The translations under genes and the position numbers were made by a program. Positions 128 to 37,728 of a DNA stretch of 38,254 bases are shown here, one piece after another. The stretch's first letter is position 1, and each line of letters starts with the position of its first letter. This DNA is from a virus (taxonomy: Duplodnaviria > Caudoviricetes). The stretch is taken from positions 1 through 38,254 of IMG/VR virus record IMGVR_UViG_3300025610_000007; one strand, 5' to 3'. The notes below the pieces were generated by a model. That model made no database searches, was not told the DNA's origin, and saw only the letters and a list, made by a program, of their open reading frames with translations.

Positions 128-190
128 TAATCTGAACATGAGTTCGTTTTCTACTTTTTTATGGTCTAATATGTTTATTTTATATTCCAT
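1..190 (-). CDS. 5' part of a hypothetical early gene crossing the junction (about 190 aa in total, MEYKINILDHKK...AAAAMPIIERY...)
   Basis: The frame of ORF 37745..38215 stays open to an ATG at 190, preceded by RBS AAGGACAAAC. Confidence 0.85.
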   Translation of the reverse strand, partial: MEYKINILDHKKVENELMFRLEQFNYRVELAAAAMPIIERYQGKKVTKHITTALDKELSKILP

Positions 191-204
191 GGTTTTGTTT
201 GTCC

Positions 205-480
205 TTATCTTGTTATTAAAAATCTTTGGGCTGTTTCTTCAGCTAGGGCCATAGCATCTTTAAATCTTCTTCTTTGGCCTAAATATCCGTTTTCTATTTG
301 TGCTATTACTCTATAACATTTTTTATAATGATTATTTTTTCTTGAGGTGTACTCAGCTACCTGATGTATATCAAACCTTATGTCATTAATTATCTTATAA
401 TATGAACCGCCATGAGGTGAACAAGCGTGTCTTATCCAGTCAGTACCCCGTAACATTTTAATTTTATTTAAGTTTTTCAT
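205..480 (-). CDS. Hypothetical early protein
   Basis: 91-aa ORF, SD AAGGA upstream, in the leftward operon. Confidence 0.75.
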   Translation of the reverse strand: MKNLNKIKMLRGTDWIRHACSPHGGSYYKIINDIRFDIHQVAEYTSRKNNHYKKCYRVIAQIENGYLGQRRRFKDAMALAEETAQRFLITR

Positions 481-532: not shown

Positions 533-1135
533 TTATACTTCCCACATATATGACTCACAACACTGGCCACAAATTGGGGCTCCCTTTGCAAGCATAGTTC
601 TTGACAACCTAACAAAGTATTTTTCTTCGTATTCATTATGGCCGCTTCCACAGTCAGGGCACTCAACTTTAAGCATTCTTGTGCCTTGTTTTTTCCTTGG
701 CTTATAGTCCAAAGCTTCATGAGGATACTTACCTAATTTCTTTTGTATCTTAGCTAGTTTAATATTCATTTCATCACTTGCTATAGTAGCTGTCATTTTA
801 CCAGTAAGGCCAATAGCTTTGGCAATACGTCTAAATGGGCCCCTGTGGCCATGTTTACAATTATCATAAGCGTGTATCATTTCATGAGCTAAAACATCAC
901 CTACCCGACTTTCATCGGCTAAAACTGGATGGATGAATATTTCATTGAATCCGTTTGTTTTATCGTTAAAGCATTGACCGATAGCAGCATTTCTTTTTCC
1001 GCCTTGAGTTGTAAAGCCGCATGATACTTTGACTTTGCTCAAGTCTACTGGGTAACCAGCTGGCTTGAAGAATACTTCGTTTATTTCTTTGGCCATTGCT
1101 ACTAAATATTGTTCCCTAGTTTTAAATTGTCTCAT
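533..1135 (-). CDS. SprT-like zinc metalloprotease with C-terminal zinc ribbon
   Basis: LAHEMIH zincin motif followed by HGHRGPF; CPDC...CGQC at C-terminus; RBS AGAAAGGACAA. Confidence 0.8.
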   Translation of the reverse strand: MRQFKTREQYLVAMAKEINEVFFKPAGYPVDLSKVKVSCGFTTQGGKRNAAIGQCFNDKTNGFNEIFIHPVLADESRVGDVLAHEMIHAYDNCKHGHRGPFRRIAKAIGLTGKMTATIASDEMNIKLAKIQKKLGKYPHEALDYKPRKKQGTRMLKVECPDCGSGHNEYEEKYFVRLSRTMLAKGAPICGQCCESYMWEV

Positions 1136-1180
1136 AATTGTCCTTTCTTTAATGTGCTGAATTGTTCAGCGTTGTGCAAT

Positions 1181-8665: not shown

Positions 8666-11088
8666 TGGCAATAATAGAGATAAAGGATTTTCGTCAAGGT
8701 CTTAACACTTTTGACGACCCAGAGGATAGTGGCCAACTATCTGAATATAAAAATTTTAATATAAGAAAATCGGGAATACTAGAGACCCGTAAGGCATTAC
8801 GCCCTGAATATAAAACAACAACATCTGTTGCTATATACGATTTGTGGAGATGGACAAATAGTAATGCAAGTGTCTGGATAGTAACTGACAAATTTGCTAC
8901 CGGAGATGATGTTCTTTTATGGAATGTAAATAATACTTTCACCAGTGTAGCTGATTTTAACAGCGATATAATAAGAGCGATAATAAATAGAGAAGCTTTT
9001 AGGGCAATTCTTGCTGACACCAAGGTTAAAATCATTCAATATATTGACAATGAATATTTTTTTGGGGAGTATGACCCTACTGCTGGGTATATAGCAGGAA
9101 ATGCAGCATTAGAATATCCATTAACATGGAAGTATAATTATGTAAAAACAACTGCGGGTACAGGAGCTATGGCCATAGGCCATCATTATTATAAAGCTGT
9201 GCCTGTTTTTGATGGAGTGCAAGAAGCATTATTTGGCGAAAGTCACGCATATTTAAAGACTACGCAAGCCGATAAAGCATTTGAGATAAGATTAGATATA
9301 GATACAAATAATTTTAATAAGCGTATTACCAGCATTAATCTTTATCGTGCGTTCTCAACATCTATAAATGTTGAACCATCATATTACTTTGTAAAAGCTA
9401 TACCACTAAAAACAAAGAGTACACATAGTGATAGGGCTGATTTAGATGCTGCTAATATTGGACAAATTGTTTATATACCCGGAGAAGATTTTACTCAGAG
9501 TGAATATAACAGTTATACTCATTTTTTCTTCGGATGGACTGGTGGCTCAGGTGAATACGCTACGACACCGGGTGTTACAAGTCCATATCAAATAACTAGC
9601 AAACATAATGAATATTTAGTCCTTACACCACTTTCTGGTACCGCTATTGCTGAAGGCATAGATAACAGTGCATGGGATAGGCCATGGACTATTACAACTT
9701 CTGGTAATGCTAACCCATCAAGTAGTGGGACTAAAAATAGAGCATACGCTGGTAGAGATGTCATAGTAGACCCAGATGGTGATTATAGCTCAAATAAATA
9801 CACGAACTGGGTTGCGTATGACTCATCGGGTAATAACGCTATTATAGAGCAAAATAACGCTAAAGCTTTTAGGTTAAATCAAGATTTTGGCTCATATAGT
9901 TCTAATGTAGATATAGACATAAGCGATGGGTATAGATATGAGATTTCAAGTAATAATGTGTATATCTATATGTACGACAAAGGATATTTAGATGGAGCAC
10001 CACATCACTTAGATGGAGTAAAGTCTGCTAAGGTAAATTATAAGTACGGTGCTGAGTTAAATGGTCGTTTATTTGTAGGTAATGTGATTACCGACCCCGA
10101 TGATGCAGCAGAGGTCTATAACAACTGGTTAATGTATAGTGAAATGAATCAACCAGATGTTATACCTTTAGACAACTTTATCTCTATAGATGACCCTCAA
10201 GGTGGTGAAATTACTGGTGTAATTAATTTTAATGGCGACTTAGTTGTGTTTAGTGAGCGAGGCATATTTAGATTAGATGTACCAAGTTTAGACCCATCAG
10301 GTTGGAGTTTATCTGAAACCTCTCCTAATATTGGTTGTATAGCTCCTGAGTCTATTGTGCAGCACAATGGTATAGCATATTTTATGAGTAAAAAGAATAT
10401 CTACGCTTTAATGCCAAATTTTAATGTAATGCCTATAGGAAACAATATTTTAGATGTTATTGAAAGTGAGGCTATAGCAAGATTAGCCCTTTCTAAGTTT
10501 GAAATAGATTATAAAAATGAAACACTGTTGTGTCGCATCGGTGTAGATGCTAATGAAAATATATATAATATGCACATACCTACATTTCAATTTGGAGAAA
10601 GAACTATATGGGGTAAACATGTGTATAGCGATGATTCTAATTTGCTATTAGCAAGTGGTTTAAACAACATTGTTAATGATGAAAATTTGGAAACATATAT
10701 TCTTACAAATGACTATGAAAATAACTTAACTAAATCATCAAAATTAATAAAAATACATGATGTAAATGGGAACGAGAACAGACATTTTGCTTATAAAACA
10801 AATCATATTCAAATAAACAAAGCCAGTAAAACATCTAAGGTAAGAAAAATTAATGTAACTCATAAGGGTATTCATAGTTCTATAGATGCAAAATTAAAAG
10901 TATATGTTGACAAAAGTTCTAGCGTATTTAAAACATTAGATTTTTCAGATGATGATAATGAAACAGATGGCCAGATAACTACATTTAGAATCGGCTGTAG
11001 AGCAAAGTTCATTCAATTTGAAATATCATCAGGCGCTGCCTCTTCTCGTGATGTAGAAATATCTAAGATTGAAGTAGAATATGAGTAG
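8665..11088 (+). CDS. Putative tail nozzle / DNA stabilisation protein (P22 gp10 or T7 gp12-like)
   Basis: N-terminal DFRQGLN, GRLFV, YSE..PD, ITG...LVVF, NIGCIAPESI beta-propeller-like motifs. Confidence 0.7.
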   Translation: MAIIEIKDFRQGLNTFDDPEDSGQLSEYKNFNIRKSGILETRKALRPEYKTTTSVAIYDLWRWTNSNASVWIVTDKFATGDDVLLWNVNNTFTSVADFNSDIIRAIINREAFRAILADTKVKIIQYIDNEYFFGEYDPTAGYIAGNAALEYPLTWKYNYVKTTAGTGAMAIGHHYYKAVPVFDGVQEALFGESHAYLKTTQADKAFEIRLDIDTNNFNKRITSINLYRAFSTSINVEPSYYFVKAIPLKTKSTHSDRADLDAANIGQIVYIPGEDFTQSEYNSYTHFFFGWTGGSGEYATTPGVTSPYQITSKHNEYLVLTPLSGTAIAEGIDNSAWDRPWTITTSGNANPSSSGTKNRAYAGRDVIVDPDGDYSSNKYTNWVAYDSSGNNAIIEQNNAKAFRLNQDFGSYSSNVDIDISDGYRYEISSNNVYIYMYDKGYLDGAPHHLDGVKSAKVNYKYGAELNGRLFVGNVITDPDDAAEVYNNWLMYSEMNQPDVIPLDNFISIDDPQGGEITGVINFNGDLVVFSERGIFRLDVPSLDPSGWSLSETSPNIGCIAPESIVQHNGIAYFMSKKNIYALMPNFNVMPIGNNILDVIESEAIARLALSKFEIDYKNETLLCRIGVDANENIYNMHIPTFQFGERTIWGKHVYSDDSNLLLASGLNNIVNDENLETYILTNDYENNLTKSSKLIKIHDVNGNENRHFAYKTNHIQINKASKTSKVRKINVTHKGIHSSIDAKLKVYVDKSSSVFKTLDFSDDDNETDGQITTFRIGCRAKFIQFEISSGAASSRDVEISKIEVEYE

Positions 11089-12388: not shown

Positions 12389-12410
12389 TAAATACGAAAG
12401 GACAAATAGT

Positions 12411-12617
12411 ATGTCAAAAATATCTAACGTGAAAAAGGCTATATTTGATAATATAGAACCCGTTAAACAAGTTAAACATGGTTTAGATTTAAGCAATGTG
12501 CAATTTAAGGTCGTAAAAGAGTCTAGTATAGGCCCAGATAGACCTTATGAAGACGAAGCTTGGCTCATCATAAAAGATGAGAATGGCAAAGAATGGACAT
12601 TTAAGAACGAGCGATAA
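12411..12617 (+). CDS. Hypothetical protein (start revised to 12411)
   Basis: ATG at 12411 preceded by GAAAGGACAAA; stop overlaps the next ATG. Confidence 0.65.
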   Translation: MSKISNVKKAIFDNIEPVKQVKHGLDLSNVQFKVVKESSIGPDRPYEDEAWLIIKDENGKEWTFKNER

Positions 12618-26795: not shown

Positions 26796-27330
26796 TACAT
26801 ATTTAATATTAACAAAAGCAAAGTGGGAGTCAGCATTACCTGCTAAACTTAAAAAAGCTGATAGATTATCTTGGAATGAATACACATATCGAGATGAAGA
26901 GCGTAGTGCTACAAGGATGGTAGATAAATATGATTACTACCCATCAGATGATAACACAAAAGCAGAGATAAAGGCGTATATGGACGATTGTGACGTAGAT
27001 TATTCATCAAGTGATACCAAAGCTGAGTTATTAGAAAAACTCAACGCAGAGCCTCATTCTGTACCGCAAGAAGAAGAAAGTTATACGTACACAGAGCAGG
27101 TGGTAAATACTACTACATTGCAATCTCCAACTTGGAAAGAGTCAGCATTTAAGTTAGGCAAACTTGGAAGTCCAAGATGGAATAACGATGGTAGTAAAGT
27201 ATTAGTTAAATATGAATTACCTATAGCAGATGGAACATTAGATGCAGTAAAAGGCACAAGTGGTATTACTGCTTTATCACATAGTGAAGCTATAGCTGAA
27301 ATGCAAAAGGATGAGTGGTCTAGTGAGTGA
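26788..27330 (+). CDS. Fibre-associated hypothetical protein with HeH/SAP-like insert
   Basis: TKAEIKAYMDDCDVDYSSSDTKAELL helix-extension-helix-like motif. Confidence 0.6.
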   Translation: MTNTYLILTKAKWESALPAKLKKADRLSWNEYTYRDEERSATRMVDKYDYYPSDDNTKAEIKAYMDDCDVDYSSSDTKAELLEKLNAEPHSVPQEEESYTYTEQVVNTTTLQSPTWKESAFKLGKLGSPRWNNDGSKVLVKYELPIADGTLDAVKGTSGITALSHSEAIAEMQKDEWSSE

Positions 27331-27403
27331 AGACATTAAAGACATTATTAAGGTTTTGGCCTTTGTAATACTTGTACTTGGCGGCATCATACTTACTATA
27401 TGA
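27323..27403 (+). CDS. 26-aa hydrophobic peptide (not in ORF track)
   Basis: GTG start, (M)SEDIKDIIKVLAFVILVLGGIILTI; overlaps both neighbours. Confidence 0.45.
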   Translation: MSEDIKDIIKVLAFVILVLGGIILTI

Positions 27404-27723
27404 GCGATGAAAAAACGTACAGGAGTTATGGGGTCACTAAACTTGACGATAATTATCGGATTAGTCTTAACATCAAGTGGCTTGGCCAAATTATTGCTGG
27501 AGTTATTTTCATTAGTCTGGGTTACGTACGTATTGAGAACAGAATTGGAGACCTTGAACGAAGAATGGAACTTGCTAATTCCAGCATTGAAGAGCTTGTA
27601 GAAAAGCATATTGAAGAAGAAGAAGTAAAGATAACACAAATGCAAGAACAATTAAAATGGTACGAAGAAGAATTAAACTTAAATCCCTTGTCGTGGGGAA
27701 AGAAAAAAAGGAAGAGAAAGTAA
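27400..27723 (+). CDS. Membrane-anchored coiled-coil protein (lysis region)
   Basis: One TM segment followed by a coiled coil and a basic tail. Confidence 0.65.
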   Translation: MSDEKTYRSYGVTKLDDNYRISLNIKWLGQIIAGVIFISLGYVRIENRIGDLERRMELANSSIEELVEKHIEEEEVKITQMQEQLKWYEEELNLNPLSWGKKKRKRK

Positions 27724-27784
27724 TCTTAACTGAAGATGACTTTAATCATAATTACTTTATTAACCGGGAACTGCGGAGAGTACG

Positions 27785-27871
27785 ATGACCCCGAATCATT
27801 GTGCTGACTGTGAAAAACCAATTCATGAATTAGATAGTTGGTTGTGTGATGAATGTAAGGAAAAAGAATAA
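27785..27871 (+). CDS. 28-aa zinc-finger micro-protein MTPNHCADCEKPIHELDSWLCDECKEKE (not in ORF track)
   Basis: Two CxxC motifs, GGAG SD, TAATG coupling to the next gene. Confidence 0.5.
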   Translation: MTPNHCADCEKPIHELDSWLCDECKEKE

Positions 27872-28188
27872 TGGATTTTCTAGCGATTTACAGCGAAGCG
27901 GGTATGATAGGTGTCGTAGGGGCTTTGCTAGTGTATATGGTTTACTCTATGAACAAAAGAGGGTCTGCGCAGGCAGAAAGTTTAAACGACCTAAAAACGG
28001 AGAACAGGGGCCAGAGTGAAACCCTTGAGAATACTGAAGGTATGTTAATAAAACTTATAGACAGATGGAATAAAACTGACGAAAGAACTGATAGAAAATT
28101 TGATGATTTAACTAGACAGATAAATGATTTAGATAATCAGGTATCAGAAATAAAAGGAAGTTTGAGTAGAGTAAATGGCAAACACTAA
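27871..28188 (+). CDS. Membrane-anchored coiled-coil protein, holin-like
   Basis: N-terminal TM (GMIGVVGALLVYMVY) followed by a coiled coil. Confidence 0.6.
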   Translation: MDFLAIYSEAGMIGVVGALLVYMVYSMNKRGSAQAESLNDLKTENRGQSETLENTEGMLIKLIDRWNKTDERTDRKFDDLTRQINDLDNQVSEIKGSLSRVNGKH

Positions 28189-28315
28189 AATAAAAAAAGT
28201 AAGTTGGATGTATGGCGGTAAAAAATATTATGGAGATTATTTACGTGAAGACAGTAAATATATTTATGCTCGCACACACAACAACAAAATTAAAAAGATT
28301 GTGAAGAAGAAGTAA
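28175..28315 (+). CDS. 46-aa basic protein MANTKIKKVSWMYGGKKYYG... (not in ORF track)
   Basis: Fills the gap exactly; TAATG coupling to the next gene. Confidence 0.6.
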   Translation: MANTKIKKVSWMYGGKKYYGDYLREDSKYIYARTHNNKIKKIVKKK

Positions 28316-28599
28316 TGAGTTATAAAACACCAGCATGGCAGCGAAAAGAAGGCAAATCCAAATCAGGTGGTTTAAACGCTGCTGGTGTTGCTAGTTATAG
28401 AAAGGCCAATCCCGGTTCCAAGTTAAAAACTGCTGTAACAACAAAGCCCTCAAAACTAAAGAAAGGAAGCAAAGCTTACCATAGGCGTAAAGCTTTTTGT
28501 AAAAGAATGAGCGGCATGAAGAAAAAATTAACAAGTAGTAAAACTGCTAATGACCCAAATAGTAGAATAAACAAAGCCCTTAGAAAGTGGAACTGTTAG
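28315..28599 (+). CDS. Conserved basic phage protein (DUF6321-like)
   Basis: PAWQRKEGK..GGLN..G..SY...PGSKLK...RRKAFCKRM.G...DPNSRINKALRKWNC, recognised from memory. Confidence 0.7.
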   Translation: MSYKTPAWQRKEGKSKSGGLNAAGVASYRKANPGSKLKTAVTTKPSKLKKGSKAYHRRKAFCKRMSGMKKKLTSSKTANDPNSRINKALRKWNC

Positions 28600-28836
28600 A
28601 TGAAGTTGAATACAAATATATCCATAGAAAATATAATTACAATTATTGCTTTAGTATGCTCGATGATTTTAGCGTTTGGATTCATGCAATATGATATAGA
28701 TGCTATAAAAAGAGACATGGAGCTGAAAGCAAGTAAAAGAGATGTGGTTGCTGATAGAGAGCTAATCACATATAAACTAGATATGATGATGGAGGACATC
28801 GCTGAAATAAAACAGATACTCAAGGAGAAACAATAA
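28600..28836 (+). CDS. Membrane protein with coiled coil (lysis region)
   Basis: TM segment IITIIALVCSMILAFGF. Confidence 0.6.
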   Translation: MKLNTNISIENIITIIALVCSMILAFGFMQYDIDAIKRDMELKASKRDVVADRELITYKLDMMMEDIAEIKQILKEKQ

Positions 28837-29069
28837 TGGAATGGTTATCACTTAGTAATGCCGCATACATGCTAGTTATTATACTAGGAGCTGTAGGAAC
28901 AATGGCCGCAGTTAAGTATAAGCCTTTAATAAAAGAGGTTAAAGAAGTAGCACAGAAATATCATGATGCGAAGAAAGATGGCTCTATTAGTAAATCTGAG
29001 CAGCAACAAATAGCAAAAGAATGTATGGATGTTATTGTTGCAATCGGAAAATTAGTTTGGAAGTTTTAA
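28836..29069 (+). CDS. Putative holin
   Basis: Small TM protein immediately before the endolysin. Confidence 0.5.
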   Translation: MEWLSLSNAAYMLVIILGAVGTMAAVKYKPLIKEVKEVAQKYHDAKKDGSISKSEQQQIAKECMDVIVAIGKLVWKF

Positions 29070-29486
29070 GTGCCTAGGTTTGGCAAACGAAGCAAAGAAC
29101 GTTTAAACGGTGTAGACAGTCGTTTAATCAATGTATTAAATGAAGTGGTGAAATACTTTGATATTACTGTCATTGAAGGTTTGCGTTCTGAGAAAAGACA
29201 AAATGAATTGTTGGCGCAAGGAAAATCAAAGACCAAATTTAGTAAGCACTTAGAGGGTAAGGCTGTAGATATTGCACCTTACCCGATAGATTGGAAAGCG
29301 AGGGACGACTTCCATTATCTCGGTGGCTTTGTATTAGGCATAGCTGCAAAAATGGGAGTCAACGTTCGCTGGGGAGGTGACTGGTCATCCCCAAGCTTAG
29401 ATAAAGATGTCATGCGAGGCGCAGAACAACGCACCACAAAAGATAACGGGTTTGACGACCTTGTTCATTTTGAATTAATAGATTAA
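29070..29486 (+). CDS. Endolysin, peptidase M15 (L-Ala-D-Glu peptidase type)
   Basis: EGLRS..RQ, SKH..G.AVD, RWGGDW, DLVHFEL. Confidence 0.92.
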   Translation: MPRFGKRSKERLNGVDSRLINVLNEVVKYFDITVIEGLRSEKRQNELLAQGKSKTKFSKHLEGKAVDIAPYPIDWKARDDFHYLGGFVLGIAAKMGVNVRWGGDWSSPSLDKDVMRGAEQRTTKDNGFDDLVHFELID

Positions 29487-29509
29487 TTTACGTAGTTACG
29501 TAACACCTT

Positions 29510-29553
29510 AAAGCCGGGTTCTTGATTGTTTGTCCTTTCTCCCCGGCTTTTTT
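29510..29553 (+). terminator. Late-operon terminator-like hairpin with a large anti-RBS loop
   Basis: AAAGCCGGG / CCCGGCTTT stem, 23-nt pyrimidine-rich loop, T-tract. Confidence 0.7.
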
Positions 29554-29559
29554 GTATCC

Positions 29560-29574
29560 CAAATCTGACACAAT
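29560..29574 (+). repeat. Putative integrase arm-type site, copy 1
   Basis: CAAATCTGACACAAT, repeated exactly at 29752-29766 on the other side of the att core. Confidence 0.7.
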
Positions 29575-29598
29575 TTTTAAAAAGATTCTCTTGCGGAA

Positions 29599-29645
29599 CT
29601 GCCCTTACAAGGCAGATGTCGGGAGTTCGAATCTCTCAACGCCCA
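29599..29645 (+). mobile_element. attP: attP core: 3' half of tRNA-Val(TAC)
   Basis: CTGCC-CTTACAA-GGCAG anticodon arm, GGGAG-TTCGAAT-CTCTC T arm, AACGCCC-A acceptor strand; no D arm; next to int. Confidence 0.88.
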
Positions 29646-29651
29646 CTCCTC

Positions 29652-29689
29652 GAGAGCCCCTGTTTATTGACGGGGGCTTTTGTGTTTTT
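29652..29689 (+). terminator. Intrinsic terminator downstream of the tRNA fragment
   Basis: GAGAGCCCCTGT / ACGGGGGCTTTT stem followed by T-rich tail. Confidence 0.7.
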
Positions 29690-29745
29690 GGGGGGTTCTG
29701 ATTGTACTTCATTGTCCTTCAAAATATCGCATAAATAGCCATTAC

Positions 29746-29766
29746 CTGACTCAAATCTGACACAAT
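29746..29766 (+). repeat. Putative integrase arm-type sites, tandem pair
   Basis: CTGACTCAA-AT-CTGACACAA, matching 29560-29574. Confidence 0.7.
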
Positions 29767-29768
29767 GG

Positions 29769-30734
29769 TTAAACGAGTTTATCAATATATTGCTTCTGTA
29801 GTTTAAGTCCGCCATGAGCATACTTACTTGCCATCTTACTTGTTGAATGCCCAGTAAGGTTTTTAATATCTTCGAGCCCTAACCCAAGTTCTTGTAGGTT
29901 GGTTGTGAAGGAATGTCTCAAACTATGTAAGTTCCATTTTTTTAATGGGTATCCCATTCCTTCTAATTTTTTTTGTAATAACTCTCTTGATTTATCTCTG
30001 TCTCCTTTATGTATATATATCTCATATATCTCATTACCATACTCTATTAGTTTAGGATGTAAATAAATACCAACATCTCTATCTGTCTTTTTCTGATTAA
30101 CAACACCATTTTCTACATCTTCTTTTTTTAAAGTACCAGCATCAACAGCTCTTAAACCTGTATAATATAAAATGTTCCAAAATATCCTATCTCTTCTTGG
30201 GATGTTTAAACGCATTAACTTTTCCCAAACGTCCTTAGGTATATTTTCTCCATCCTTACTCTTTACATCTCCTATTGTTGCGGCTATCGTAGGATTACTG
30301 GATATATATGTGTTATTGTGGGCATACTCGAACATCTTTTTAATAATAGATAGCTCTTTTTTAACGGTAGTGCCAGCAACAACAGAGAGCCTATTATTAA
30401 TGTATTTATTAATATCAATAAGCCTCACGTTCTTTATTTGTTTTGTGCCCATATATTCTATTAAGTGATTCATTACTATTTTAACCCTGTCAGCCCATGC
30501 TTTTGTTTTCTTAGGAAGTATTTCTAAATTATAATATTCTTTATACAATTCCGCTACGTTTAAACTACTTGTTGCTATTCCGTTTTCTTGGAGCATTATT
30601 TCGGTGTATAATGCCGCTCCTAACTTTTCTGCTATTTTTTTATTGGTAGTCTTTAAAGACTTTCTGACCCTATTGCCTTTTTCGTTGCTACCATATATAA
30701 AATAATAATAACCATTACTTCTTTTTGTAATCAT
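29769..30734 (-). CDS. int: Tyrosine integrase
   Basis: TGLR, K (KKT), HSLRH, TGH and catalytic Y (KYAH); short N-terminal arm-binding-like domain. Confidence 0.95.
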   Translation of the reverse strand: MITKRSNGYYYFIYGSNEKGNRVRKSLKTTNKKIAEKLGAALYTEIMLQENGIATSSLNVAELYKEYYNLEILPKKTKAWADRVKIVMNHLIEYMGTKQIKNVRLIDINKYINNRLSVVAGTTVKKELSIIKKMFEYAHNNTYISSNPTIAATIGDVKSKDGENIPKDVWEKLMRLNIPRRDRIFWNILYYTGLRAVDAGTLKKEDVENGVVNQKKTDRDVGIYLHPKLIEYGNEIYEIYIHKGDRDKSRELLQKKLEGMGYPLKKWNLHSLRHSFTTNLQELGLGLEDIKNLTGHSTSKMASKYAHGGLKLQKQYIDKLV

Positions 30735-30765
30735 AGTTTGTCCTTTCTATTTAATTACTGTTTAA

Positions 30766-31485
30766 TTATTCAGACAACCACCTAATATGTGCAGTGCCAG
30801 TTCCTTTTACCCAGTTTACTCTATATTCAACATTTGCTTTAAATATTGTACCATTTTTATGAGTATATAAAACTGGTATTTCAGCTACAAGCATCGTTGT
30901 ATTCATTTTAATGGCTTTATATGCTCTCATAAAATTATCCATTATGCCAAGCATTTCTTCTTTTTGCTTTTGAGTCCTTAATTGATGAATATTGTGGTCT
31001 TTATAGTCCACCATTTCATCTATTTGTAAAAAATTAATTATTTGTGCTTCAGTATAACCTAATTTTTTAGCCATTGTTGGTATATAACTACTATCTTGAG
31101 AAAGATATTTTACTTTTACCCCGAAATTTTTTATTGACCAACTAAATTTCACTTCAAAAGAAAATACAATATCAGATTGTATACCATCATATACAGATTC
31201 ATCTTCTTTGATTTTACTTTCTAATTGTTCTATCTTTTCTTTTTGCAATTCTATTAAATAGTCTTTTTGATTATTGCTTATTGCTGCACTCTCTATCACT
31301 TCATTTGTCCTTTCTTCTTTTTTGTCTAAAACTTCAAACCTTCTTTTGACCATCTCTGGTACTTCAGTTCTCCCTGATTCATAGTTAGCAACTGTGTTTC
31401 TATGTATACTTAAAATCTTTGCAAATTGGCCCTGAGTATATCCATTTCTTAAACGATAGGCTCTCAATATTTCTTGCATTTCCAT
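30766..31485 (-). CDS. Repressor-like regulator: XRE HTH, coiled coil, PAS-like domain (start revised to 31485)
   Basis: LRAYRLRNGYTQGQFAKILSIHRNTVANYESG HTH; GGAGG SD before MEMQ; divergent from the Xis-like gene. Confidence 0.8.
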   Translation of the reverse strand: MEMQEILRAYRLRNGYTQGQFAKILSIHRNTVANYESGRTEVPEMVKRRFEVLDKKEERTNEVIESAAISNNQKDYLIELQKEKIEQLESKIKEDESVYDGIQSDIVFSFEVKFSWSIKNFGVKVKYLSQDSSYIPTMAKKLGYTEAQIINFLQIDEMVDYKDHNIHQLRTQKQKEEMLGIMDNFMRAYKAIKMNTTMLVAEIPVLYTHKNGTIFKANVEYRVNWVKGTGTAHIRWLSE

Positions 31486-31591
31486 AAAATCCTCCAATTT
31501 TATCTTGCACAATATAGTACATTTATGTTTATATTTGCACATCAATTATGATTCAAATACTAATTAAACCATAAAGATACATAAAGGTACA

Positions 31592-31786
31592 ATGAAAAAC
31601 ATTTTTAATCAAGAAGAAATATATAGCCCTAAAGAAGCTGCTGAAATACTTAAAGTAAGTAAGGCCGCTATCTTAGAAGACATTCATACAAAAAGAATAA
31701 AGAATGTAATTAAGCGTGGCTATCGCACCTTTCGCATACCGGGTGATTCTCTTAATGCTTATTGGAATAGCCAGAGAATTTCCTAA
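31592..31786 (+). CDS. Excisionase-like HTH protein (HTH_17 type)
   Basis: YSPKEAAEILKVSK...G.RTFRIP..SL. Confidence 0.8.
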   Translation: MKNIFNQEEIYSPKEAAEILKVSKAAILEDIHTKRIKNVIKRGYRTFRIPGDSLNAYWNSQRIS

Positions 31787-31794
31787 AAATAATT

Positions 31795-31885
31795 GGAGGG
31801 CCGCATCCCCAATCTCTCTACCTATAGCGTGGCCTTCTGTTCAGCTGCTGAGGTTTCTTATTCCTCCTTTCTTGACCTCAGCGGC
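31795..31885 (+). ncRNA. Candidate two-hairpin structured RNA with an anti-Shine-Dalgarno loop
   Basis: Two 10-12 bp stems whose G-U pairs work only on the + strand; loop 2 contains CCTCCTTTCT. Confidence 0.5.
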
Positions 31886-31912
31886 AAGCTTTAATAACTA
31901 TCAGGAGAAACA

Positions 31913-32767
31913 ATGAATAAAACACCTATTATGTGTAAGATGGTAAGTAGTGGAGGGAATAGATACTACGTGCCTATCAATACAAACTATGTTCAAGAGG
32001 AATATAAATTGGATGACCTTTACCCATGGAAAAAGTTATCCACTACCAGCTTTTTAAATATCTTAAATAAACCGGGGCTTACTGCATGGAAGCAAAACAA
32101 AGGTTGGCTTGCTGGGCCAGAAGGTAAAACAGCTGCACTCAAAGGCACAATTACGCACATTGGTGTAGATAGAATGCACTATGGTGCACCAGTTAATAAA
32201 GAGTGGATAATGATGAAGATTAATAAAAGTAGGTTCACGATGTGGCAGCTTTTTTATGACTCAGCAGATTCTCTTTGTTATGACATACAAAAGCATTTAG
32301 CTGGGTATGTGGCATTTTGTGAAGAAAAACAACCTGAGATACTTGCTAGTGAAATTATGTTGTGGCACCCTAATTATCTATGGGCTGGGACAGGTGATTT
32401 ATTTGCAAGCTTTAAAACACGTAAAAATAATAAGAATAGAGTTAATTGTTACATAGACCTAAAGACAGGCAAACCTAACCCTGAGCACGCCATTCAAGGG
32501 GTTGCCTATGCTATGTTGTGGAACGCTCACTTTCCTGAGCAACAAATCACGCATATAGGAAACGTATATACAAACGATGGATGGTTGAAAGACCCCACAT
32601 ACAAATTAACAGTAAAGCCAATCACAGATGAATTACGTGATGAGTGGATGGCCATTGTAAATCTTTATGAAAAACAAAAGGGGAAGAATTGGCAGCCTAG
32701 AAAACAGCCTGAAGTCCCCGAAGATTTTTCAATATCATATCTTAAACAACAGAAAAGGAGTGCATAG
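31913..32767 (+). CDS. PD-(D/E)xK exonuclease (lambda-exo/Cas4-like superfamily)
   Basis: GTITH, SE, WAGTGDL, YIDLKTG, Q..AY motifs. Confidence 0.8.
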   Translation: MNKTPIMCKMVSSGGNRYYVPINTNYVQEEYKLDDLYPWKKLSTTSFLNILNKPGLTAWKQNKGWLAGPEGKTAALKGTITHIGVDRMHYGAPVNKEWIMMKINKSRFTMWQLFYDSADSLCYDIQKHLAGYVAFCEEKQPEILASEIMLWHPNYLWAGTGDLFASFKTRKNNKNRVNCYIDLKTGKPNPEHAIQGVAYAMLWNAHFPEQQITHIGNVYTNDGWLKDPTYKLTVKPITDELRDEWMAIVNLYEKQKGKNWQPRKQPEVPEDFSISYLKQQKRSA

Positions 32768-32769
32768 CT

Positions 32770-33000
32770 ATGGCACAACAGTACGAAGTAAAGCCTGAAA
32801 CAGGCAGTCTCTTTAAAAATAAAGAGAAGAGTAAACCAACAGCACCAGACCTAACAGGAAACTGTAAAGTGGGTGGCAAGGAGTGGCGTGTAGCCGCTTG
32901 GATGAATGAGTCAAAGAAAGGTGTTAAATACTATTCTTTGAAGTTCAGTGAGCCACAGGCTGGTGATTCAGCACCAAAGGATGATGATTTACCATTCTAA
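32770..33000 (+). CDS. Putative small ssDNA-binding protein
   Basis: GSLFKN...PDLTG...AAW...KYYSL and an acidic SSB-type tail DDDLPF. Confidence 0.7.
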   Translation: MAQQYEVKPETGSLFKNKEKSKPTAPDLTGNCKVGGKEWRVAAWMNESKKGVKYYSLKFSEPQAGDSAPKDDDLPF

Positions 33001-35293: not shown

Positions 35294-35558
35294 AATATTG
35301 AACTGGGCCAGTAAGTATGGCATCATAAAAGAGCGTTTAAACAAGGCAGATTATTTAATACAAGAATATCATGATTGGTTTGCTGGGTTTGTAAGACAAA
35401 TCATGGGCGACATAGTAAAGCTTGAACAACGCAAGATGGGTAATACCCGTTTTATAGCTAATACAGAAAGCTATGCTTATACCGCTTTAAAAAGAATTGC
35501 AGAACTTGAAAAAGAATTAAAAGAATACCACAAACTAAAAGGAAAGGACAAATCATGA
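35286..35558 (+). CDS. Hypothetical protein
   Basis: Coupled ORF with coiled-coil C-terminus. Confidence 0.6.
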   Translation: MDKILNWASKYGIIKERLNKADYLIQEYHDWFAGFVRQIMGDIVKLEQRKMGNTRFIANTESYAYTALKRIAELEKELKEYHKLKGKDKS

Positions 35559-36652: not shown

Positions 36653-37048
36653 TTAGTATAAATCTAAATAATCTTTATACCAACGCCTTCCTTTCTTTTG
36701 GTTGTTCTTTGCCTCCTCAAACGCAATACTTAACGTTTGTTGGCCTTCATACGGAACAAAAATAACTTCATTGATACCTAGTTCCGGTCTTTCGATTGGT
36801 ATGGCTATAAAGTCCGCATTTACGTTTTTATCATTTAAATAAATAATAATAGAAGTTTCTGAATTACCTGACGTAGTATGGAACTTTACTTGTAGTTTTC
36901 TTAATATTCCATCTCTCTCGGCTATCATATCGCAGCCATCAATATCTATTAATGGTTGGTAAACTGTCCAGCCTTCTTGTATTATTTTCATGATTGTCCG
37001 GAGCTCTCCGATGGCTCCCTGTGTTGTGGTGCAGTGTTTGTTTGGCAT
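36653..37048 (-). CDS. PD-(D/E)xK endonuclease-like protein
   Basis: G.IGE, GWTVYQP, D..CDMI, LQVK motifs. Confidence 0.75.
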   Translation of the reverse strand: MPNKHCTTTQGAIGELRTIMKIIQEGWTVYQPLIDIDGCDMIAERDGILRKLQVKFHTTSGNSETSIIIYLNDKNVNADFIAIPIERPELGINEVIFVPYEGQQTLSIAFEEAKNNQKKGRRWYKDYLDLY

Positions 37049-37124
37049 GTGGTTTGTCCTTTTCTACTTTTCACTGTGTTTGTCCTTTACTTGTTTAGAC
37101 CGTTTAAACAGTCTCTTTAATTTA

Positions 37125-37655
37125 CTAATGCAATGTCAATTTGTTTTTTATAACTCTTGGTTCTTCGGTTATAGTATATTTAGTTAAAACCCACTCTATA
37201 CACTTATTTAATAGGTTTTCGTAAAGCATTTGTTCTTCTCCGTCATACGCATAATTATAATGCTTTTCAGGGTCTTTTATTAATTGAATAACTTTGTCTA
37301 AATCATCTGTGATATTTGGTACTGTATATCTTATAGCACTTAATTGGCTCGCCCAATGGTCGTTAGATATTCTTGGATTTGATAGAACGGTTCCATCTCC
37401 TCCGCACCACATACATTCATCTGAATCTTCAAAACAGTCTTCATTGTGACAAGGTTTATTTACTTTATGAGCTATATTGCAGTTACCATTATTATAATAA
37501 TCATAGGTAATATTTGTTACCGCTCTCAATACTTCCCCTTCTTTAGTTTTTGCCTTTCCTTCATGGGGTACTAAGGCCTCCATTAAAATATCATAACTTT
37601 CTTGATGTTTGCCGCCATCGTTCCAATATGTTTTATTATCGTCAAAATTTTTCAT
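37125..37655 (-). CDS. Hypothetical early protein
   Basis: 176 aa; YWN.GKHQ...LVP.EG...GEVLRA...YDYYNNG; Cys cluster; RBS AAGGACAAA. Confidence 0.75.
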   Translation of the reverse strand: MKNFDDNKTYWNDGGKHQESYDILMEALVPHEGKAKTKEGEVLRAVTNITYDYYNNGNCNIAHKVNKPCHNEDCFEDSDECMWCGGDGTVLSNPRISNDHWASQLSAIRYTVPNITDDLDKVIQLIKDPEKHYNYAYDGEEQMLYENLLNKCIEWVLTKYTITEEPRVIKNKLTLH

Positions 37656-37695
37656 GTTATTTGTCCTTATCTTGTTTAAACGTGTTTAATTTACT

Positions 37696-37728
37696 AAAAA
37701 AAATCTTTGCCGGGTTTACCCTCCCGGC
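37696..37728 (-). terminator. Hairpin/attenuator within the early operon
   Basis: GCCGGG-N8-CCCGGC followed by AAAGA and T8 on the minus strand. Confidence 0.45.

What the first reader, a model, noticed from the sequence alone, without database searches (positions are those of the whole stretch)
29510..29553. Terminator hairpin whose loop is antisense to the integrase and early-gene RBS motif
Seen: a 9-bp stem encloses an unusually large unpaired loop UUCUUGAUUGUUUGUCCUUUCUC. Its GTTTGTCCTTTCT (29528-29540) is the exact complement of the int RBS (13 nt) and matches 9-12 nt of the other AAGGACAA sites. No start codon follows on the minus strand, so it is not itself an RBS. Inference: the 3' end of the late/lysis transcript acts as a trans-acting antisense RNA that shuts off int, early genes and the internal repressor start. 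Alternatively the minus-strand copy is a decoy for an RNA-binding repressor, and integration at attP uncouples it from int (compare lambda sib retroregulation). I do not recognise this circuit as described.
Basis: partly seen in the sequence, partly recalled or inferred. Interest (0 to 1): 0.8.

Follow-up and report, generated by a model that had tools for sequence, protein, structure and literature searches.

The report
Lysis-operon hairpin mirroring early-gene ribosome sites
Right after the lysis gene of a temperate phage that likely infects Marinimicrobia sits an RNA hairpin whose open loop is the mirror image of a ribosome-binding tag shared by its integrase and early genes; distant relatives keep the hairpin with a changed loop that matches their own changed tag, so the late message likely switches those genes off by base-pairing, which nobody has yet tested.

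Summary
A 9-bp stem, 23-nt loop and six T follow the endolysin gene. Loop bases 29528-29540 complement the integrase leader, and 9 start sites carry the same tag. Eight of the 13 bases equal the host 16S 3' end; only the rest is phage-specific.

Four distant relatives (terminase 56-57% identical) keep a hairpin at the same place, with new stems and a separate terminator behind it. Their loop reads AUUAUCC instead of UUUGUCC, and their early leaders changed to match. In the three whose integrase could be seen it lies 6-7 kb away yet carries the tag. G-U pairs in 3 of the 4 point to the lysin strand as the RNA strand.

This favours a trans-acting anti-leader RNA at the late transcript's 3' end. 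It argues against sib-like action in cis and against an opposite-strand decoy.

Limits: covariation is one switch between two lineages, three other integrase-bearing relatives lack the system, RNA data are weak, and repression is untested.

The scan noted this kind of element before in other phages. Cultured Cluster K1 mycobacteriophages show an analogous loop, which offers a bench test.

The parts
29510..29550 (+). Hairpin: 9-bp stem enclosing a 23-nt loop (29519-29541)
   Evidence: the only big-loop terminator-like hairpin in the window under the criteria; identical in 5 of 5 close relatives
29528..29540 (+). 13-nt anti-leader in the loop; its last 8 nt equal the host 16S 3' end
   Evidence: opening cost 1.8 kcal/mol
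29548..29553 (+). U-tract: the hairpin likely doubles as terminator of the late/lysis operon
   Evidence: sequence; RNA contigs of two runs stop at 29517 and 29518 (weak hint)
29070..29486 (+). Endolysin, last gene of the late operon
   Evidence: phrog_465, E 3e-39
29599..29645 (+). attP core: 3' half of tRNA-Val
   Evidence: exact 47-nt match in host genomes, three titled Candidatus Neomarinimicrobiota
29560..29574 (+). Putative integrase arm-type repeat (second copy 29752-29766)
   Evidence: sequence; role inferred from position on both sides of the att core
29651..29682 (+). Ordinary terminator behind the tRNA fragment, similar to the host tRNA-Val terminator
29693..29719 (+). Partial second copy of the 5' arm and loop, without a closing stem
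   Evidence: deleted in relative L003
29769..30734 (-). Tyrosine integrase
   Evidence: phrog_1, E 1e-42; PF00589
30736..30748 (-). Integrase leader, 13-nt complement of the loop (predicted target)
   Evidence: duplex -19.5, net -13.9 kcal/mol
31299..31312 (-). Tag plus in-frame GTG inside the repressor gene (possible internal start)
   Evidence: kept in L003; ordinary SD plus ATG at the same place in G081 and G118
190..206 (-). Tagged leader of a 191-aa gene that runs across the genome origin
1135..1145 (-). Tagged leader of the SprT-like gene (533-1135)
37655..37668 (-). Tagged leader of a 176-aa gene; cassette hairpin upstream at 37709-37728
37048..37087 (-). Two tandem tagged leaders (GTG at 37074, ATG at 37048)
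35544..35557 (+). Tagged leader of a 140-aa gene in the rightward replication operon
12398..12413 (+). Tagged leader of a 68-aa gene inside the virion module (the one tagged gene in the late region)
   Evidence: no PHROG match

Best explanation
The hairpin is likely the 3' end of the phage's late/lysis transcript, and its open loop likely base-pairs in trans with the shared ribosome-binding tag of the integrase and early genes, which would block their translation late in lytic growth. Shown: the complementarity, its conserved place behind the endolysin gene, the matched change of loop and tag between two lineages, the turnover of the stem, and the tag on a relocated integrase. Inferred: that the RNA ends here and is stable (as whole mRNA or a processed 3' piece), that it pairs in the cell, that pairing represses, and the timing. 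The predicted duplex covers about -17 to +5 of each start, so it would compete with the 30S subunit; the loop is in effect a 16S-tail mimic extended by phage-private bases. The likely benefit is to stop integration and early-gene products once virions are being built.
For: Position: hairpin within about 25 nt of the endolysin stop in the window and in G062, G081, G085, G118 (terminase 56-57%, capsid 39-44% identical). Covariation: the window loop gives runs of 10 nt or more with 7 of 11 own AAGGA[CT]A leaders and with 0 of 14, 0 of 11, 0 of 9 and 1 of 4 in the relatives; the relatives' loops give 12 of 14, 11 of 11, 8 of 9 and 2 of 4 in their lineage and 1 of 11 in the window. Stems: five different sequences, 7-9 pairs each; G-U pairs in G062 (2 of 7), G081 (2 of 8), G118 (1 of 7) hold only on the lysin strand. 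In the four relatives a separate terminator-like hairpin follows, so the big-loop hairpin is kept where it is not needed to terminate. Integrase: at the end of the early array, 6-7 kb from the hairpin, and tagged in G062, G081, G085. Tag is rare in the host: 6 hits in 9.9 Mb against 4 for the control pattern. Net pairing energy -13.7 to -17.6 kcal/mol for the 9 tagged starts. Of 36 records screened, 5 had both a repeated leader and a hairpin-enclosed mirror copy. RNA contigs of the late operon stop at the 5' arm in two runs.
Against: No functional data. The covariation is one switch between two lineages, not many events. With the 16S-like core held fixed, the extra match is significant in the window (p 0.007) but not in G062, G081 or G085 singly (p 0.34, 0.14, 0.066). 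The window loop still pairs with the other lineage's leaders at -15 to -16 kcal/mol through G-U. Three integrase-bearing relatives with closer capsids (G056, G057, G064) have neither tag class nor hairpin, and G059 and G008 repeat a leader 5-6 times without a mirror hairpin in what was fetched. The untagged membrane-protein gene before the endolysin scores -13.6, as well as the weakest tagged starts. One tagged gene lies in the late module. The window and G085 fold slightly better on the opposite strand. In deletion variant L004 the int leader lost the private bases while the loop is unchanged. The RNA runs are unstranded contigs of one year and habitat label; one run has a contig across the hairpin to 29569. 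No Hfq in 5 of 5 incomplete host genomes.
Confidence: 0.58

Rival explanations
1. Relic of an early-gene cassette. A copy of the repeated [hairpin + leader] cassette landed in reverse beside att and lost its gene; the mirror match is shared ancestry kept in step by recombination, and the structure only terminates transcription.
For: Read on the opposite strand in G062, G081, G085 and G118, a G-C hairpin lies 14-21 nt before the tag, close to the spacing in the early cassettes. The window stem GCCGGG/CCCGGC recurs in the cassette hairpin at 37709-37728. Such cassettes recombine in T4-type phages (PMC2839356, abstract and section 13).
Against: The cassette's conserved CAAGATTT box and start codon are missing. 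A stem enclosing the tag is not part of the cassettes, yet it is kept in five different sequences with strand-specific G-U pairs. The 23-nt loop is identical in 5 of 5 close relatives whose flanks are rearranged.
Confidence: 0.15
2. The tag is a site for an RNA-binding protein or nuclease (RegA-, RegB- or CsrA-like), and the minus-strand copy in the hairpin is a decoy for it.
For: The tag holds AGGA and extends beyond 16S pairing. T4 RegB cleaves GGAG in early mRNAs (PMC1702504, start of abstract). CsrA is present in 1 of 5 candidate host genomes. In the window, int read-through could reach the hairpin.
Against: G-U pairs become mismatches on the tag strand in 3 of 4 relatives. In G081 and G118 an A-run before the second hairpin makes a strong terminator for the convergent strand ahead of the tag. 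One GGA only, where sponges repeat it (recalled). No candidate phage protein was identified.
Confidence: 0.1
3. The loop acts in cis on its own late mRNA or as a general anti-SD: it folds back on the leader of the gene before the endolysin, or binds any SD-like leader.
For: 8 of 13 nt equal the 16S tail. The leader at 28836 pairs at -15.8 (net -13.6) and the exonuclease leader at -14.5 kcal/mol.
Against: The genes before the endolysin in G081, G085 and G118 have no tag. Loops follow the early tag of their own lineage.
Confidence: 0.08
4. The tag is a DNA site (operator or promoter element) that works in either orientation; the copy near att controls late or att-proximal transcription.
For: The early cassettes must hold promoters somewhere (inference from PMC2839356, section 13); the copy lies near att and the repressor gene.
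Against: The tag is asymmetric, coincides with the SD and sits 2-9 nt before start codons. A DNA site needs no enclosing stem with G-U pairs.
Confidence: 0.05
5. Lambda sib-like retroregulation: the hairpin destabilises the int transcript in cis before integration and is cut away from int by recombination at attP.
For: In the window the order is int, att core, hairpin, so integration separates them.
Against: In G062, G081 and G085 the hairpin stays behind the endolysin while int lies 6-7 kb away across a convergent operon. This reading does not explain the match to the other leaders.
Confidence: 0.04

Closest known systems
Start-associated sequences (SAS) of Cluster K mycobacteriophages (PMC3203893, passages; still unexplained in PMC11373665 and PMC12699233, passages)
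   Same: An asymmetric motif at the SD position before many non-structural genes, conserved beyond 16S pairing and rare in the host, with one copy that is not at a start and is reversed to the local transcript.
   Different: Different sequence and host phylum. No RNA partner is named in the passages read. Here the lone copy is in a hairpin loop at the late 3' end and changes with the tag.
C4 antisense RNA of phages P1 and P7 (Rfam RF01695, listed in PMC2864571; mechanism recalled, not read)
   Same: A phage RNA that uses loop-exposed bases to pair in trans near a ribosome-binding site.
   Different: No Rfam match. C4 is a processed multi-stem RNA acting on its own operon; this is one hairpin at an mRNA 3' end with about 7-13 predicted targets across the genome, including int.
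PeSL promoter/stem-loop cassettes of T4-type phages RB49 and phi1 (PMC2839356, section 13)
   Same: The tagged early genes of this family sit in repeated cassettes of G-C hairpin, AT-rich stretch and SD before ORFans.
   Different: No antisense partner is described there. Sigma-70 boxes were not shown here. The post-lysin hairpin has no gene behind it.
Lambda sib retroregulation and OOP antisense RNA (recalled)
   Same: RNA-level control that lowers integrase or lysogeny functions during lytic growth, encoded next to att.
   Different: sib acts in cis through RNase III and OOP is a cis-encoded full antisense; here int can be far away and the match is a short shared tag.
Intrinsic (Rho-independent) terminator
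   Same: G-C stem followed by a U-tract at the end of an operon.
   Different: Loop of 23 nt; in the relatives the U-tract belongs to a second hairpin.

Membership tests
Intrinsic terminator | G-C-rich stem followed directly by a U-tract | tested here: met
   6 G-C pairs then six T
Intrinsic terminator | Short loop (3-8 nt) | tested here: not met
   23-nt loop; not found by the standard scan
Intrinsic terminator | Transcripts end at the U-tract | tested here: inconclusive
   Unstranded RNA contigs stop at 29517, 29518 and 29479 in three runs; one runs on to 29569
SAS-type start tag | Asymmetric motif a few nt before start codons, overlapping the SD and extending beyond it | tested here: met
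   9 of 13 sites before starts; 16S tail
SAS-type start tag | Mostly before non-structural genes and rare in the host | tested here: met
   8 of 9 outside the virion module; 6 host hits in 9.9 Mb against 4 control
SAS-type start tag | The Cluster K 13-bp consensus itself | tested here: not met
   Different sequence
C4 antisense RNA (RF01695) | Match to the covariance model | tested here: not met
   No match at gathering score or at E up to 1
C4 antisense RNA (RF01695) | Loop-exposed complement to a ribosome-binding region | tested here: met
C4 antisense RNA (RF01695) | Repression shown by compensatory mutation | not testable with these tools
   Needs a reporter assay
PeSL cassette | Repeated stem-loop plus SD before small ORFans | tested here: met
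   Early arrays of G062, G081, G085, G118; clear for one window gene; not met by the post-lysin hairpin, which has no gene behind it
PeSL cassette | Sigma-70-like -35 and -10 boxes in the cassette | not tested
   The scan covered only 27000-33000 and found no excess (18 against 23.4)
sib-type retroregulator | Lies on the int transcript beyond att | tested here: not met
   True in the window, false in 3 of 3 relatives whose int was seen
CsrA/Rsm sponge RNA | Several GGA motifs in loops on the transcribed strand | tested here: not met
   One GGA, on the strand that G-U pairs disfavour; CsrA in 1 of 5 host genomes

The most novel reading that the evidence does not exclude
Phages tag integrase and a whole class of early genes with a private extension of the Shine-Dalgarno sequence and silence them all with one 16S-tail-like loop carried on the late transcript: a protein-free early-to-late and lysis-versus-integration switch. 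The same device would explain the start-associated sequences of Cluster K mycobacteriophages, whose lone reversed copy lies in a hairpin loop in the gap where late transcription is reported to begin.
Probability: 0.4. Interest if true: 0.85.

Novelty: new variant of a known kind. Interest (0 to 1): 0.64.

Why it matters
Shared start tags in phage genomes have been on record without a mechanism since 2011 (PMC3203893) and are still called unexplained in 2024 and 2025 papers (PMC11373665, PMC12699233). A late-transcript loop that follows the tag through evolution names an RNA partner and predicts simple compensatory-mutation tests. It would add a multi-target RNA layer to the lytic timing and integration control of temperate phages, in a host group in which no Hfq was found in the five incomplete genomes checked.

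Tried and rejected
Endolysin relatives in the viral collection (80 loci): apart from the close strains, the endolysin is not followed by such a hairpin; most have another gene behind it. Integrase and exonuclease homologue searches gave almost no intermediate relatives. SprT relatives carry the tag only in 2 of 55 leaders printed. Marinimicrobia genomes: 6 of 401 hold the endolysin; the four best were read and none has the hairpin. A fixed-stem pattern scan gave 13 loci outside this phage group, about five families, with anti-SD-like loops; the pattern forced the loop core, no control scan was run, and their loops match few starts, so this is a lead only. Strict hairpin criteria missed the relatives' weaker stems; they were found through their leaders. 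Energy-threshold shuffle test not significant (four of the 45 starts there were entered off position, two were corrected). The palindrome at 29488-29503 is broken in L005. A conserved small ORF on the minus strand was rejected. Rfam gave nothing but weak chance hits and the tRNA fragment. RNA contigs barely cover int and the repressor, but contig depth cannot rank genes, so this is not used. No separate abundant small RNA was seen, which contigs cannot show. Cluster K covariation test failed in DarthP: tag unchanged, loop more generic.

Full report
Setting. The window is a complete circular phage genome: a 127-nt terminal overlap, classed as direct terminal repeats. Terminase, portal, capsid and virion genes run rightward to an endolysin at 29070-29486. 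A tyrosine integrase (29769-30734) and a repressor-like gene converge on it from the right. Between them lies the 3' half of tRNA-Val, 47 nt identical to host genomes, three of them titled Candidatus Neomarinimicrobiota. The phage is therefore temperate and likely infects Marinimicrobia. The sequencing runs that hold it are labelled freshwater metagenome.

Observation. The hairpin is as described: 9 pairs, 23-nt loop, six T. It is identical in 5 of 5 close relatives with integrases 92-100% identical, although their flanks are rearranged. AAGGACAA occurs 13 times against 2.0 expected; 9 copies precede start codons. The loop complements the int leader over 13 nt and the other eight over 9-12 nt. 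The host 16S tail ends in CCUCCUUUCU, so 8 of the 13 nt are ordinary anti-SD. The private part still exceeds chance in this genome: 7 of 51 genes match over 10 nt or more, against 0.68 when that core is held fixed (p 0.007; p 0.049 in the hand-made set). The tag followed by ATG is rare in five candidate host genomes, 6 hits in 9.9 Mb against 4 for the control.

Distant relatives. A capsid profile scan brought in G062, whose early genes carry a different tag, AAAAGAAAGGATAAT, 12 times, with one extra copy not at a start. That copy lies 10-50 nt behind the endolysin stop, reversed, in the loop of a 7-bp stem, followed by an ordinary terminator and a tRNA-Leu fragment. A pattern scan for the cassette leader that left the tag's variable part free gave 106 loci. 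I searched 30 of these records, then 39 more records (from this scan and from the capsid scans), for the endolysin. Four had it: G081, G085 and G118 have the hairpin at the same place, G088 has neither hairpin nor tag class. These phages share 56-57% terminase and 39-44% capsid identity with the window.

Covariation. The window loop forms runs of 10 nt or more with 7 of 11 of its own AAGGA[CT]A leaders and with 0 of 14, 0 of 11, 0 of 9 and 1 of 4 in G062, G081, G085, G118. Their loops do so with 12 of 14, 11 of 11, 8 of 9 and 2 of 4 in their lineage and 1 of 11 in the window. This is one switch between two lineages. With the 16S-like core fixed, the relatives are not significant singly (p 0.34, 0.14, 0.066), because their extension is A/U-rich. 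In energy the specificity is one-sided: the window loop still pairs with the foreign leaders at -15 to -16 kcal/mol, against -18 for its own.

Structure and strand. The five stems differ in sequence and keep 7-9 pairs. G062, G081 and G118 use G-U pairs that hold only on the lysin strand and fold 3 kcal/mol better there; the window and G085 have none and fold slightly better on the other strand. In the four relatives a second hairpin follows, so the large-loop hairpin is kept where termination has another site. In the window the two roles appear fused.

Integrase. In G081 and G085 an integrase (phrog_1), and in G062 its homologue, stands at the end of the early cassette array, about 6-7 kb from the hairpin (for G062 and G085 counted round the record ends), and each carries the tag. 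The record of G118 breaks off before an integrase. So int belongs to the tagged class in both lineages whatever its position, which fits action in trans and not sib-like action in cis. The internal repressor start is plausible, since G081 and G118 have an SD and ATG at the same linker, but it is not tagged there.

Where it is missing. Of 36 records screened alike, 5 had a repeated leader and a hairpin-enclosed mirror copy (G054, G055, G062, G081, G085). G118 was missed because its array is cut short. The other 30 had none, among them G056, G057 and G064, which have integrases and capsids closer to the window. The system is thus patchy and not needed by all temperate relatives.

Expression. Contigs from four metatranscriptome runs cover the late operon. 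Two stop at 29517 and 29518, one at 29479, and one low-depth contig runs to 29569; depth falls from 14-24 to 3-9 across the hairpin in three runs, while a DNA run stays at 4.5-4.6. These are unstranded contigs, the tables are cut, and the runs share year and label, so this is a weak hint of a 3' end at the hairpin. It says nothing on a free small RNA.

Mechanism. Opening the 13-nt loop segment costs 1.8 kcal/mol. Predicted duplexes span about -17 to +5 of the tagged starts with net energies of -13.7 to -17.6 kcal/mol; five of six untagged controls give -9.1 to +3.8, and the gene before the endolysin gives -13.6. The simplest reading is that the late mRNA's 3' hairpin, whole or processed, occludes the 30S site of int and the early cassette genes as late RNA accumulates. 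Pairing in the cell, repression and timing are inferred. Rivals and their odds are listed separately; the strongest is a reversed relic cassette.

Literature. Ten full-text searches found no description of a late-transcript loop complementary to a shared phage start tag; the library lacks most subscription journals. Seen: PMC2839356, abstract and section 13; passages of PMC3203893, PMC4351075, PMC2864571, PMC11373665 and PMC12699233; PMC1702504 and bioRxiv 10.1101/2024.10.31.621285 as listings only (119). No supplements were opened; figures 14 and S3 of PMC3203893 were not seen. The C4, sib, OOP and CsrA mechanisms are recalled.

A cultured analogue. PMC3203893 notes one reversed SAS, not at a start, in four Cluster K1 phages. 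In Anaya it lies in the 10-nt loop of a long hairpin (z only -1.1 in this G-C-rich DNA). The stretch is found in 135 phage records, and 7 of 32 predicted pairs show double changes among nine aligned. In Adephagia it lies between genes 92 and 93, where late transcription appears to start (PMC11373665). Against: the loop is anti-SAS in 5 of 9 aligned, generic in 2 and absent in 2; DarthP keeps the tag with a changed loop; Pixie and TM4 have no reversed copy within two mismatches in the parts fetched.

Verdict. Real and conserved; most likely a trans-acting anti-leader RNA on the late transcript (0.58). It works like loop-exposing phage antisense RNAs but belongs to no catalogued family tested. 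Earlier notes of this scan describe the same kind in other phages; none covers this DNA. They are unchecked and not counted as support.

Noticed in passing
L482:39835-39915 (Anaya 59834-59914); Adephagia 58611-58742: The lone reversed start-associated sequence of Cluster K1 mycobacteriophages lies in the loop of a conserved hairpin with compensatory pairs, in the gap where late transcription is reported to begin; the loop is not kept in all subclusters.
   Followed up: partly
L307:16460-16510, L434:845-885, L436:14775-14810: A second anti-leader loop sits in the early array of G062, G081 and G085, each time behind the same 68-aa gene (MDIH...), on the early strand: possible feedback of the early transcript on its own class. 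The window lacks this gene.
   Followed up: partly
L307:13400-18000, L340:7700-12550, L436:11950-14850; window 37655-37728: Arrays of 8-13 one-gene cassettes, each a G-C hairpin, a CAAGATTT-like box, an A-rich stretch and the tagged leader, before ORFans and ending in the integrase; PeSL-like.
   Followed up: partly
L004:400-1500: Close relative in which the repressor gene and the att core are missing, int follows the repressor's upstream region with an untagged leader, and the hairpin abuts the int stop: deletion variant or misassembly.
   Followed up: no
window 31299-31312; L434 and L454 repressor genes: Possible internal start at the linker of the repressor in both lineages, which would give a C-terminal-only product; the C-terminal domain is swapped in L003.
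   Followed up: partly
window 29693-29719: Partial copy of the hairpin's 5' arm and loop in the right arm of attP, with no closing stem; kept in L005, deleted in L003.
   Followed up: partly
window 12411-12617: A 68-aa gene of unknown family inside the virion module carries the early-type tag and gives the strongest predicted duplex.
   Followed up: no
L306:5720-5760, L434:10450-10560, L432: In G062, G081 and G118 the att region holds the 5' part of a tRNA-Leu-like sequence, where the window holds a 3' half; G085 has another sequence there.
   Followed up: no
L022, L026, L027, L028 at 10001-10039: Unrelated phages have G-C hairpins with large anti-SD-like loops at gene ends; no control scan was run.
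   Followed up: partly
L012, L018: Candidate host genomes hold two or three copies of the tRNA-Val 3' half, so several elements likely integrate at this site.
   Followed up: no
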